From the human T2T-CHM13v2.0 reference genome, Homo sapiens: DNA of 64,000 nucleotides. Positions 3,382-53,640 of the stretch are shown here, one piece after another. Both the position numbers and the translations under genes were made by a program. Every line of letters begins with the position of its first letter. Within the stretch, counting starts at the first letter, position 1. The notes below the pieces were generated by a model. The model made no database searches and was not told the DNA's origin. It saw only the letters and a list, made by a program, of their open reading frames with translations. The stretch is from the NCBI RefSeq assembly GCF_009914755.1, contig NC_060947.1, one strand, 5' to 3'.

Positions 3382-4545
<1,164 letters not shown>

Positions 4546-51470: not shown

Positions 51471-51797
51471 CTCTTAAGTATTGTGACTGCATTCTAGGCA
51501 GAAAGAATAAAGAGAGTGGCAAAAGGCCAGCTAAGTCTGTCCCCTTTCATCAGGAAAACAATAACTTTCCCAGAAGCCTCATGCAGTAGACTTCTGCTTA
51601 GATCTCATTTGCCAGAGCTGGATCACATGTCCATTCTGGCTTCAAGGGAGTCTGAGGAATTATTTTTACTAGGCACATTGTTTTGCTGAAAAATTGAAGT
51701 TCTGAAAGTAAAGGTGAAAAGAGTGGCTATTGGGTAAGCAACTATCAGTTGCTTACACGAAGCATGCATTATCTGTTTAGTTTAAAATACACCATAG

Positions 51798-52760
51798 GGT
51801 CCTTTCCGCTCGGAGACCTCTCTTTCTATAGACAGAGAGCTGTTTCTCTTTCTCTTGTCTTCTGCCTATTAAACCTCCACTCCTAAACTCCTTGTGTGTG
51901 TCCGTGTCCTAAATTTTCCTGTCGCGTGACAATGAACCCCAGGGTATATACCCCAGACAACGTAGTCACTTCATAATGGGGACCTCATCCGAGATACCAA
52001 GGTGCAACATTCACCGAAACGATGAATAGATGAGGGGACTCCAACTCTGTCCTTTCATTTCGAGGCTCTTGGCTTCCATTTTAGAACCAAATCAAACCAA
52101 ATACTGGGCCCCCTTCAGCCATTTAAAAACGATTAGTGTGGCTGCCAGCCTTAAAAGACTTGGGGGACAGGCTTACTAGGGAGAACATGGAGAATCTCCC
52201 GGCACCCATGGGTTGCTGGGCATATTGGCCATGTTTGAACCAGCTTCCTTTCACGGAAGACTTAGCCATCAGGTGGGGCTGGAAGAAGTCCTGAGGCAGC
52301 TGAGGATTTCTGACCAGGGCTAGCTCCCAGTGTTATCCAAAGGCTTCTGGACTGGCCCCAGCCTCCAATTGCCTCGATGGGGTGTCGGCAACAGGATCTC
52401 CAACTTTCCTTTTGTAATTTCCTCCTTTCCTGTCTGCGACCGCCATATCTCTTATCCTCTCTGTATGCAATGTGTGGGAAGCTTTACAGTTCAGGGAAGT
52501 AATCTTGTTTGGCAAGACCAGGGAATGTCATAGTCCATGTAAACGTCATACCTGATCAAACCAATCTGTGAGCCCCATGTAAATCAGACACCCCTCCTCA
52601 AACCTGACTATAAAATCTGGCACATGGGCCGCCTGCTGGTCCTTTCTGTTCGGAGACCCCTCTCTCTATATATAGAGAGAGCTGTTTCTCTTTCTCTTCT
52701 CTTCTGCCTATTAAACCTCTGCTCCTAAACAAAACAAAACAAAACAAAAACAAACAAAAA
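51798..52760 (+). pseudogene. Processed retrocopy of an ERV1 (LTR9/MER61/HUERS-P3-like) transcript: R-U5, PBS, leader, partial U3-R, poly(A)
   Basis: R repeats at 51798-51888 and 52638-52730; LTR end ...cacttca at 51973; PBS-Pro-like tggggacctcatccgagat at 51977-51995; CCAAT 52561, TATAAAA 52609, ATTAAA 52710; A-rich tail 52731-52760; TSD aaaatacaccatag/aagaaacactatag. Confidence 0.8.
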
Positions 52761-53640
52761 AAGAAACACTATAGATAGGTGGGAGGAACTCTTCAACTGG
52801 CTCAAACTCCAATGCCCTAAGCTGGGGAGCATCCCCCTCCACCACCACCACCACGTGTGGATACCCCCTTATCCTGTTTGAGCTTTGATGTTTGATGCCC
52901 GCACAAGGTCACTTTAGGAGGATTCTCTCTAAGTACTCCTTGGTCTCTGATACCCCATACCTGACTATCTCCACTGGACAAAATAGGTTCTTGAGTCAAG
53001 CACTAAGTAAGGAATATGAAGATTTCATAATTTGTGTGCAGTTTCAGATAAATTCTTTCCAAAGTTAGGAGAAGTAAGAATAAAATATGTAACTGGAATC
53101 AGTTGCTACCTAAAGATGTCTTTTTTTAAACCTCACCATGGTACCTGGGGTTAGAAGCAATGCTTTGTTTACTCTTTTTAAAAAGCAACAGAATGGGAAT
53201 ATTGTAGTAAATCTCTGGGGGAATTCCTGTCTTCACACCAAAAATAGTTGTTATTCTCTTAGTTGGTTTGGTTTTATCTCATGGACATTTTGAAGTATAT
53301 ATTTTTTCTTATTTTTTTCCAATTTTTGAGCCACATACATTTTATAGACTACTATTCATTTTTAATCTGTTTCCTTTTTTCTTTTTCACTTTCTCCTTTT
53401 CTCTCCTACTCTTTTTTATTTTCCTTCTTTACTTTCTCTTTTTTCCTGCCAATTTTAGTTTTTATCTTTGTGCTGTATTTAATTGTATCATCACAGGCCA
53501 CATTAAATCATTTCTGGAAGATCAGTTTTAAATAAATAGATGAATAAAAAAATAGCAGTTAAAAAAAGGGAGAGAAAAGATTTAAGAACATTTCTAAAAG
53601 TAACCCCAAAATTTCTTCAGGGGGATAAAAAGTGGGATGA

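What the first reader, a model, noticed from the sequence alone, without database searches (positions are those of the whole stretch)
51784..52774. L1-mobilised RNA copy of a miniature LTR9/MER61-type endogenous retrovirus
Seen in the sequence: (1) The insert starts at ggtcctttc (51798). The same sequence in the downstream LTR copy (52638) lies 29 nt after the T of TATAAAA (52609), so the 5' end is at the expected transcription start and there is no 5' U3. (2) It continues R-U5 to the LTR end ...cacttca (51973), then a tRNA-Pro-like PBS (51977-51995) and ~550 nt of leader. (3) It then jumps at ~52535 into the distal U3 (CCAAT, TATA) and R. (4) It stops 15 nt after ATTAAA (52710), where the 5' copy would enter U5, and turns into an A-rich tail. 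(5) Flanks are a 14-bp imperfect duplication (aaaatacaccatag / aagaaacactatag, 3 mismatches) at a ttt|aaaa site, the L1 endonuclease consensus. Established knowledge: R-U5...U3-R-polyA with a long TSD is the signature of L1-processed ERV RNAs, best known for HERV-W, whereas retroviral integration gives complete LTRs and 4-6 bp TSDs. Inference: this is a ~0.95 kb processed copy of a spliced or internally deleted HUERS-P3/MER61-class RNA. It would map the element's TSS and cleavage site, and it may belong to an overlooked SINE-like family of LTR-derived retroposons. The two R copies differ at roughly 10% of sites, so the event is old.
Basis: partly seen in the sequence, partly recalled or inferred. 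Interest (0 to 1): 0.82.

Follow-up and report, generated by a model that had tools for sequence, protein, structure and literature searches.

The report
L1-made copy of an ERV RNA
This 0.95-kb stretch is an ancient copy of an endogenous-retrovirus RNA pasted into the genome by the LINE-1 machinery, one of at least about 45 such copies from a retrovirus group other than HERV-W, the only group a 2017 review credits with this behaviour.

Summary
The element (51798-52730) runs R-U5-PBS-leader, then distal U3-R, then an A-rich tail, between 14-bp repeats matching at 11 of 14.

Its own target duplication is weak, but relatives in the same genome make the LINE-1 reading strong:
- Many full proviruses show that the 5' end is the R start and that 52534|52535 joins the leader to U3 about 100 nt upstream of R.
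- At least about 45 other places carry the same R end followed by an A tail. Most of those I could read start at the same R nucleotide.
- A target-duplication score of 8 or more occurs in 17 of 28 copies, against 45 of 756 mismatched controls.

These copies come in four forms: R alone (about 95 nt), canonically spliced RNA, 5'-truncated RNA, and internally deleted copies like this one.

The junction here is not a splice, and no other copy among those scored shares it. Internally deleted copies arose at least three times. One other junction recurs in four copies.

Across 10 junction classes the two breakpoints obey x+y≈constant (permutation p≈1e-4). An RNA-duplex explanation failed my tests, so this stays unexplained.

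The LTR9/MER61/HUERS-P3 name could not be tested.

The parts
51784..51797 (+). 5' copy of the target-site duplication (AAAATACACCATAG), preceded by TTT, giving a TTT|AAAA site
   Evidence: It matches 52761-52774 at 11 of 14. Of 6109 control 14-mers, 6 match as well.
51798..51888 (+). 5' R (91 nt). The copy starts at the transcription start, with no U3 upstream.
   Evidence: 82 of 91 identical to the 3' R. Other retrocopies start at the same nucleotides. Full proviruses have about 415-440 nt of U3 upstream of this point.
51889..51973 (+). U5, ending ...CACTTCA
   Evidence: It aligns to the end of the LTR of the chromosome-12 provirus (LTR = ref5 1063-1679).
51977..51995 (+). Primer-binding site, tRNA-Pro-like (TGGGGACCTCATCCGAGAT)
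   Evidence: The same site is seen in relatives. The tRNA-Pro assignment rests on a recalled tRNA 3' end, not on a tool result.
51996..52534 (+). Unspliced leader. It holds a decayed 5' splice site at 52021|52022 (CG|ATGAAT here, G|GTGAGT in relatives) and ends at the breakpoint 52534.
   Evidence: leader ends at ref5 2226. The splice donor is defined by the spliced copies L069, L073 and L085.
52535..52637 (+). Distal 103 nt of U3, with CCAAT (52561-52565) and TATAAAA (52609-52615)
   Evidence: U3 resumes at ref5 1396 of a U3 spanning 1063-1500.
52638..52730 (+). 3' R (93 nt) with ATTAAA at 52710-52715. It ends at the cleavage site, with no U5.
   Evidence: The same end followed by an A run occurs at 34 places in the genome, against 0 for the reversed pattern.
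52731..52760 (+). Degraded poly(A) tail (83% A)
52761..52774 (+). 3' copy of the target-site duplication (AAGAAACACTATAG)

Best explanation
A class I endogenous retrovirus with a tRNA-Pro-like primer site was transcribed from its LTR promoter. The RNA started at R, was capped, and was cleaved and polyadenylated about 15 nt after ATTAAA in the 3' R. The LINE-1 endonuclease and reverse transcriptase then nicked a TTT|AAAA site, primed on the poly(A) tail and copied this RNA into the chromosome. That left R-U5-PBS-leader...U3-R-(A)n between 14-bp target duplications.

The copy lacks about 5 kb of internal sequence and the first roughly 330 nt of U3. The join (52534|52535) is not a splice junction. 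Most likely it arose either by template switching of the reverse transcriptase or in an already deleted template RNA.

The copy has no promoter at its 5' end and is inert. It lies in an intron of LINC01545 on the opposite strand.

Shown: the anatomy, the common start and end with many relatives, tails, target duplications, and the non-splice junction. Inferred: LINE-1 as the agent, how the deletion arose, and an age of tens of millions of years.
For: Anatomy of this copy:
- It is confirmed base by base.
- Of the 29 relatives found with the element as query, 23 have a full 5' LTR and a long internal region. This fixes what is missing here.
- An RNase H domain (PF00075, E 5.8e-6, 27 bits against a cut-off of 25.8) in the chromosome-12 copy shows these are proviruses.

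Polyadenylated relatives:
- The R end followed by an A run occurs at 34 places, against 0 for the reversed control. A second pattern gives 31 places against 0, of which 11 are new.
- The 30 loci I could read split as follows: 7 internally deleted copies like this one, 3 spliced-RNA copies, 1 5'-truncated genomic copy, 16 R-only copies, 2 truncated R, and 1 false positive.

Insertion hallmarks:
- Retrocopies start within a few nt of the same GG(G)TC/GGGCC, about 30 nt after the TATA box.
- A target-duplication score of 8 or more occurs in 17 of 28 copies, against 45 of 756 mismatched pairs.
- Most duplications start with an A run after T or C.

Splicing:
- The spliced copies join ...GAAACG to CAACATCTGG. 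The donor is followed by GTGAGT in unspliced copies. The acceptor is preceded by TTTCAG in L067.
- This proves that processed RNA of this virus was being copied.
Against: - This copy's own duplication has 3 mismatches in 14, and scores below the 90th percentile of controls in the position-free test.
- No orthologous or paralogous empty site could be examined.
- No source locus with this junction was found. How the deletion arose is not shown.
- LINE-1 involvement is inferred from hallmarks only.
- Each DNA search scored only the 40 best of about 580-1250 candidates. 'Unique junction' and all counts are therefore lower bounds.
Confidence: 0.85

Rival explanations
1. It is a retrocopy of a spliced subgenomic RNA. 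The 52534|52535 junction would then be an exon-exon junction.
For: Spliced RNAs of this virus were retrocopied (L069, L073 and L085; 3 places for the junction pattern). In 6 of 11 internally deleted copies the U3 breakpoint follows an AG in the reference. I read this from the and 25 output and ran no formal test.
Against: In this copy the true splice donor (52021|52022) is unspliced. At 52534 the reference leader continues AA, or GTAA only if the join is shifted by 2 nt. The U3 base before the breakpoint is not preceded by AG. Ten different junction classes exist in the same 170-nt windows, and most donors lack GT.
Confidence: 0.04
2. It is a member of a self-propagating, SINE-like lineage of miniature LTR-derived retroposons descended from one deleted master.
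For: One other junction class is shared by four copies with different flanks: L023, L027, C1:27040334-27040882 and C12:108749040-108749257. At least one deleted template was therefore copied repeatedly. L023 and L027 are sisters on the tree.
Against: - This junction has no contiguous match among the 40 candidates scored, and neither does L003's.
- The 8 internally deleted copies on the tree need 7 label changes. Well-supported branches force at least 3 origins, and 262 of 500 label shuffles are as clustered.
- The copies carry no promoter at their 5' end.
Confidence: 0.07
3. It is an ordinary provirus or a full-length processed pseudogene that lost its ends or its interior by later deletions, next to a chance A-rich tract.
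For: The element is old (about 10% divergence per branch), and deletions are common in old repeats. Its target duplication is imperfect.
Against: - Both ends fall on the R boundaries, which dozens of other copies also use.
- Ten independent junction classes have breakpoints confined to the same two 170-nt windows and correlated with each other. Random later deletions would not produce this.
- The tail begins exactly at the cleavage site.
Confidence: 0.04

Closest known systems
HERV-W processed pseudogenes (LINE-1-mobilised retroviral RNA copies)
   Same: [quoted passage not shown] These are the hallmarks listed by Grandi and Tramontano 2017 (PMC5537654, passages read).
   Different: - This is a different virus group: a PBS-Pro-like site rather than Trp (recalled), and a different LTR.
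- That review calls HERV-W the sole HERV group mobilised by L1.
- This copy is not colinear with genomic or spliced RNA. It carries a non-splice internal deletion.
- The population also includes R-only copies of about 95 nt.
SVA (its SINE-R part derives from a HERV-K LTR/env) and other LINE-1-dependent non-autonomous retroposons
   Same: Both are LTR-derived sequence moved by LINE-1, with a tail and target duplications (recalled; SVA mobilisation by L1 is mentioned in PMC5537654 and PMC5753468).
   Different: SVA is a propagating lineage with master copies. Here most copies look like independent dead-on-arrival events, and only one junction class recurs.
LINE-1 chimeric retrocopies formed by template switching (U6-L1 and similar)
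   Same: Two RNA segments are joined at a non-splice junction with little or no microhomology, inside one insertion bounded by one tail and one duplication. Two relatives (L072, L084) join a leader fragment exactly to the start of R, as if a complete R-only RNA had been copied first.
   Different: The known chimeras (recalled, not read here) join two different RNAs at the 3' end of a small RNA. Here both parts come from the same virus, and the breakpoints are correlated.
Solo LTRs and truncated proviruses of HUERS-P3 (LTR9/MER61 group in Repbase)
   Same: Probably the same virus group. It has a PBS-Pro-like site, several LTR subtypes, and old age: 85% identity between the two LTRs of the chromosome-12 provirus. 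HUERSP3 is listed among the oldest groups in PMC4724089. HUERS-P3 is linked to LTR9A1/B/C/D and MER61A/B/E/F in PMC5753468.
   Different: Integrase products have complete LTRs and 4-6 bp duplications (recalled). This element has neither. The name itself was not tested.

Membership tests
LINE-1-processed retroviral pseudogene | 5' end at the start of R, with no U3 | tested here: met
   The element starts at 51798, the same word that lies 29 nt after TATAAAA in the 3' copy. Full proviruses carry about 415-440 nt of U3 upstream of this point. Other retrocopies start at the same place.
LINE-1-processed retroviral pseudogene | 3' end at the cleavage site in R, with no U5, followed by a poly(A) tail | tested here: met
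   The element ends at 52730, 15 nt after ATTAAA, and the next 30 nt are 83% A. The same end plus tail occurs at 34 places, against 0 in the control.
LINE-1-processed retroviral pseudogene | Target-site duplication of about 5-20 bp | tested here: met
   The two copies match at 11 of 14, and 6 of 6109 control 14-mers match as well. Alone it is weak, scoring 6 against a control 90th percentile of 7. At family level, 17 of 28 copies score 8 or more, against 45 of 756 controls.
LINE-1-processed retroviral pseudogene | Insertion at a TT|AAAA-like endonuclease site | tested here: met
   The site here is GTTTAGTTT|AAAATAC. Most relatives have Y|AAAA-type sites (output, read by eye, no statistic).
LINE-1-processed retroviral pseudogene | Colinear with a genomic or spliced viral RNA | tested here: not met
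   The leader joins distal U3 at a non-splice junction. Colinearity is met by three relatives copied from spliced RNA and by the 5'-truncated L067.
LINE-1-processed retroviral pseudogene | An empty orthologous site holding a single copy of the duplicated word | not testable with these tools
   No other primate genome is held. No paralogous empty site exists.
HUERS-P3 / LTR9 / MER61 (Repbase/Dfam names) | Sequence match to the library consensus of the LTR and the internal part | not testable with these tools
   No repeat library is available. One lead only: L029 lies at C6:31.28 Mb, and PMC7848197 lists an LTR9 between MICA and MICB at hg38 chr6:31423445-31424086. I could not lift coordinates between assemblies.
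HUERS-P3 / LTR9 / MER61 (Repbase/Dfam names) | Primer-binding site for tRNA-Pro | tested here: inconclusive
   TGGGGACCTCATCCGAGAT here, and TGGGGACCTCGTCCGGGAT in relatives, resemble the complement of the tRNA-Pro 3' end as I recall it. No tRNA sequence was fetched to check.
HUERS-P3 / LTR9 / MER61 (Repbase/Dfam names) | An old class I provirus | tested here: met
   The internal part has an RNase H domain. The two LTRs of one provirus are 85% identical. Terminal branches have a median of 0.13. PMC4724089 lists HUERSP3 among the oldest groups. Class I itself was not tested.
Propagating SINE-like retroposon family | Many copies sharing one structure and junction, forming a clade | tested here: not met
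   This junction has 0 contiguous matches among 40 scored candidates. Deleted copies need 7 changes on the tree, with at least 3 origins. The feature is met only by another junction class with four copies.
Propagating SINE-like retroposon family | A promoter carried inside the copy, upstream of its start | tested here: not met
   There is no U3 at the 5' end. The retained CCAAT and TATA boxes sit near the 3' end and could only drive the 3' R.

The most novel reading that the evidence does not exclude
In 10 independent junction classes of internally deleted retrocopies, the leader breakpoint x and the U3/R breakpoint y obey x+y≈3625±22. Each ranges over about 165 nt, and the slope is about -1. 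The most novel reading is that the gag-proximal leader and the 3' U3/R of this extinct virus's RNA lay antiparallel and in register in the particle being copied, and that the LINE-1 reverse transcriptase crossed from one to the other. On that reading the copies are fossil records of a long-range RNA contact and of reverse-transcriptase jumping some tens of millions of years ago. With the R-only and spliced copies, they would also show that LINE-1 sampled the whole transcript output of a second retrovirus group.
Probability: 0.2. Interest if true: 0.8.

Novelty: new member of a known kind. Interest (0 to 1): 0.6.

Why it matters
Reviews state that HERV-W is the only human endogenous retrovirus group whose RNAs were moved by LINE-1 (PMC5537654, passages read). 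They treat the reason for that restriction as an open question.

This window's element belongs to a different and older group. That group left at least about 45 tailed copies, including copies of a canonically spliced RNA and of the roughly 95-nt R transcript. So the restriction to HERV-W is not absolute, and what makes a retroviral RNA a LINE-1 substrate can be studied by comparing two groups.

The copies also fix the transcription start, the cleavage zone and one intron of an extinct virus without any RNA data. Repeat annotation is likely to show such copies as LTR fragments next to simple A repeats. Counts of 'solo LTRs' and of LTR promoters may therefore include promoterless retrocopies.

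I found no report of this in six full-text searches. Subscription papers were not searchable, among them the original 2002 HERV-W studies, so earlier mention cannot be excluded.

Tried and rejected
(1) RNA-duplex or hairpin-skipping explanation for the correlated breakpoints. One provirus looked promising:
- Co-folding ref5 1501-2500 with 1063-1592 gave 62 intermolecular pairs in the junction register. None of 26 shuffles reached that number (maximum 25).
- A narrower co-fold gave an interaction energy of -26.8 against -14.1±4.2. One of 100 shuffles was as low.

It did not hold up elsewhere:
- 0 of the 10 other proviruses tested (of 21 in hand) show any in-register pair.
- The interaction-energy z-score is below -3 in 5 of 21 copies, with a mean of -0.95.
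- A junction-centred hairpin is not seen beyond shuffles in the 11 deleted copies. This copy, L010 and L027 have 0 such pairs.
- The best local pairing of the leader with the LTR lies in the register in 2 of 22 copies.
- Averaged over 21 copies, the register bands score 31-37.5, against 40-44 for three other registers.
- An unrestricted search in ref5 put the best pairing elsewhere.

I reject it as shown, but decayed copies are a poor test.

(2) Splicing at the junction. Rejected; see rivals.

(3) A single evolving master with progressive nested deletions. Breakpoints are nearly nested (9 of 10), but the tree forces at least 3 origins.

(4) A paralogous empty site. The 5' flank holds only an old repeat that ends more than 110 nt before the site. 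The 3' flank has one 69% match elsewhere.

(5) Other blanks:
- Rfam gave no match in 51500-53100.
- Pfam on 8 reading frames of the gag-side internal region of L015 gave nothing.
Two loci already in hand served as 5' and 3' references.

Full report
**The observation**

- GGTCC at 51798 repeats at 52638, 29 nt after the T of TATAAAA (52609).
- The 5' copy runs on through U5 to CACTTCA (51973). A tRNA-Pro-like primer site follows at 51977-51995, then about 540 nt of leader.
- At 52534|52535 the sequence passes into distal U3, with CCAAT at 52561 and TATA at 52609.
- The 3' R stops at 52730, 15 nt after ATTAAA. Thirty bases of 83% A follow.
- AAAATACACCATAG and AAGAAACACTATAG flank the whole element, matching at 11 of 14. 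The 5' copy sits after TTT.
- The two R copies share 82 of 91 aligned bases, plus a 2-nt indel.

**What the genome adds**

The window's own assembly could be searched. With the element as query, 29 other loci were fetched.

Twenty-three of them are proviruses. Homology among them begins about 415-440 nt upstream of the R start, in an LTR of about 617 nt. It continues more than 1.5 kb beyond the point where this element's leader stops.

One provirus on chromosome 12 served as a coordinate system, using two loci as ref5 and ref3. Its two LTRs are 85% identical, and its interior holds an RNase H domain (PF00075, E 5.8e-6).

Against these proviruses, the window's element lacks three things:
- the whole 5' U3;
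- everything between leader position 2226 and U3 position 1396 in ref5 numbering;
- the 3' U5.

**A population of tailed copies**

A pattern made of the R end followed by an A run matched 34 places. The reversed control matched 0. A second pattern, for tails starting 2 nt later, matched 31 against 0, and 11 of those places were new. Both patterns allow only 3 mismatches in copies that are 15-25% diverged, so these are lower bounds.

The 30 loci I could read are:

| Form | Count |
|---|---|
| Internally deleted copies like the window's | 7 |
| Copies of a spliced RNA | 3 |
| 5'-truncated genomic-type copy (L067) | 1 |
| R alone (about 95 nt) plus tail | 16 |
| Only the last ~45 nt of R plus tail | 2 |
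| Ordinary LTR (false positive, L086) | 1 |

Four more internally deleted copies came: L003, L010, L019 and L023.

The spliced copies join ...CATTGAAACG to CAACATCTGGTGG. In unspliced copies the donor is followed by GTGAGT. In L067 the acceptor is preceded by TTTCAG. The junction pattern finds 3 places in the genome, and L069 carries a variant of it. Processed RNA of this virus was therefore a substrate for copying.

**LINE-1 hallmarks**

The retrocopies begin within a few nucleotides of the same GG(G)TC/GGGCC.

I tested 28 copies with defined ends for a target duplication. Left out were L019 (tail lost), L084 (5' end split by an Alu), L067, L062 and L070. I required the 5' repeat to end within -4 to +3 nt of the R start.
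- A score of 8 or more occurred in 17 of 28 copies, against 45 of 756 pairs that matched one copy's 5' flank with another's 3' flank.
- By class this was 12 of 16 R-only copies, 4 of 9 internally deleted copies and 1 of 3 spliced copies.
- The window's copy scored 6, against a control 90th percentile of 7. Alone it is weak.

With the position fixed next to the tail, 6 of 6109 control 14-mers match as well as the window's 3' repeat does.

Most duplications begin with an A run preceded by T or C (output, read by eye).

**The junction is not a splice and not a family marker**

- The true donor at 52021|52022 is unspliced here and has decayed to ATGAAT.
- At the breakpoint there is no GT..AG in the reference.
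- A 416-nt query across the junction found no contiguous match among the 40 candidates scored, of 1040 found. L003's junction is likewise alone.
- L023's junction, in contrast, aligns contiguously in L027, in C1:27040339-27040882 and in C12:108749040-108749257. At least one deleted template was copied four times.
- L072's junction region aligns through L084 at 77%. Both join a leader fragment to the very start of R.

I built a tree of the first 630-640 nt from 22 proviruses and 8 internally deleted copies. L074, L084 and L090 were left out because Alus interrupt them. Spliced and R-only copies were too short to include. The results:
- The tree is star-like.
- The deleted copies need 7 label changes.
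- Well-supported branches force at least 3 origins.
- 262 of 500 label shuffles are as clustered.

Internally deleted copies therefore arose repeatedly from different source lineages.

**An unexplained regularity**

I placed the two breakpoints of 11 deleted copies on the reference. The leader breakpoint x ranges over 2129-2288, and the U3/R breakpoint y over 1355-1518. Their sum stays at 3625±21.
- With all 11 copies, Pearson r is -0.91, and a permutation test on the spread of the sums gives p = 8e-5.
- Collapsing copies that share a junction leaves 10 classes: r = -0.91, slope -0.96, p = 1.3e-4.
- Without the two extreme points, r = -0.80 and p = 0.01.

Retaining more leader goes with retaining more U3, symmetrically.

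The natural explanation is an antiparallel duplex that the reverse transcriptase skips across. It looked good in one provirus but failed in every wider test. Junctions show 0-7 nt of microhomology (read).

I cannot say whether the deletions arose during LINE-1 copying or in the templates. The four-copy junction argues for a pre-deleted template at least once. The many different junctions, drawn from several source lineages, argue for a recurrent process.

**Age and context**

The terminal branch of the window's copy is 0.10 changes per site. At a recalled neutral rate of about 2e-9 per site per year, that is some 40-50 million years.

The element lies in an intron of LINC01545 on the opposite strand (hub annotation). 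It has no promoter at its 5' end. No Rfam family matches the region.

**Comparison with what is known**

The hallmarks are those listed for HERV-W processed pseudogenes (PMC5537654, passages read). That review states that HERV-W is the sole HERV group mobilised by L1.

Vargiu et al. 2016 (PMC4724089, passages read) list 16 canonical and 40 other HUERSP3/LTR9 chains. [quoted passage not shown]

Kojima 2018 (PMC5753468, passages read) links HUERS-P3 with LTR9A1/B/C/D and MER61A/B/E/F. That fits the several R subtypes seen here.

Six full-text searches found no report of L1-made copies for this group.

**Verdict**

The core interpretation is well supported, mainly by the relatives. The 'spliced' and 'miniature provirus' parts are not supported, and the 'overlooked family' part is half right. 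The breakpoint regularity is a real loose end.

Noticed in passing
L061, L064, L065, L066, L068, L071, L075, L076, L078-L083, L087, L089 (about 1420-1600 in the oriented loci): Sixteen copies consist of R alone (about 95 nt) plus an A tail. They start at the transcription start. Twelve of the 16 have target duplications scoring 8 or more (up to 20-22 bp). They come from at least three R subtypes. They look like retrocopies of the short RNA made when the LTR's own poly(A) signal is used. Later R-R recombination is the alternative.
   Followed up: partly
L069 about 740-760, L073 about 855-870, L085 about 770-785 (oriented); also C5:138933840-138933870: These are retrocopies of a canonically spliced RNA. 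The donor G|GTGAGT lies about 45 nt after the PBS. The acceptor TTTCAG|C lies about 270 nt before the 3' LTR. A full U3, R and tail follow.
   Followed up: partly
11 internally deleted copies: window 52534|52535; L003, L010, L019, L022, L023, L027, L072, L074, L084, L090: The leader and U3/R breakpoints lie on an anti-diagonal: x+y = 3625±22 over a 165-nt range, permutation p about 1e-4. A leader:U3 duplex was tested and not supported.
   Followed up: yes
L023, L027, C1:27040334-27040882, C12:108749029-108749956: Four copies with different flanks share one leader|U3 junction, with AATCT microhomology. One deleted template was therefore copied repeatedly. No source provirus with this junction was seen.
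   Followed up: partly
U3 breakpoints in L010, L074 and L023 (ref5 about 1434) and in L072 and L084 (ref5 about 1500, the R start): U3-side breakpoints recur at a few spots. In 6 of 11 copies they follow an AG in the reference, while the leader-side breakpoints differ and mostly lack GT.
   Followed up: no
L052 2811-3191 (minus strand), the chromosome-12 provirus: The RNase H part of pol lies only about 800-1170 nt upstream of the 3' LTR. This provirus (about 6.1 kb) seems to lack integrase and env.
   Followed up: no
L011 (C11:88.8 Mb) and L014 (C11:49.9 Mb); C5:70429604 and C5:71480595: These are pairs of near-identical proviral copies (terminal branches 0.012 and 0.019 for the first pair). 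They are most likely carried by recent segmental duplications rather than being separate insertions.
   Followed up: no
L010 about 2296-2551; L073, L074, L084 and L090 (interiors): Alu elements were inserted into five of the retrocopies after their arrival, which fits their age.
   Followed up: no
window about 51490-51680: An old dispersed repeat (29 other matches at 69-85% identity) lies in the 5' flank and ends more than 110 nt before the insertion site.
   Followed up: no
window 51818-51839 and 52653-52688: A CTCTCTATAGAGAGAG-type palindrome near the 5' end of R could form a hairpin in the RNA. It is present in all R subtypes seen.
   Followed up: no
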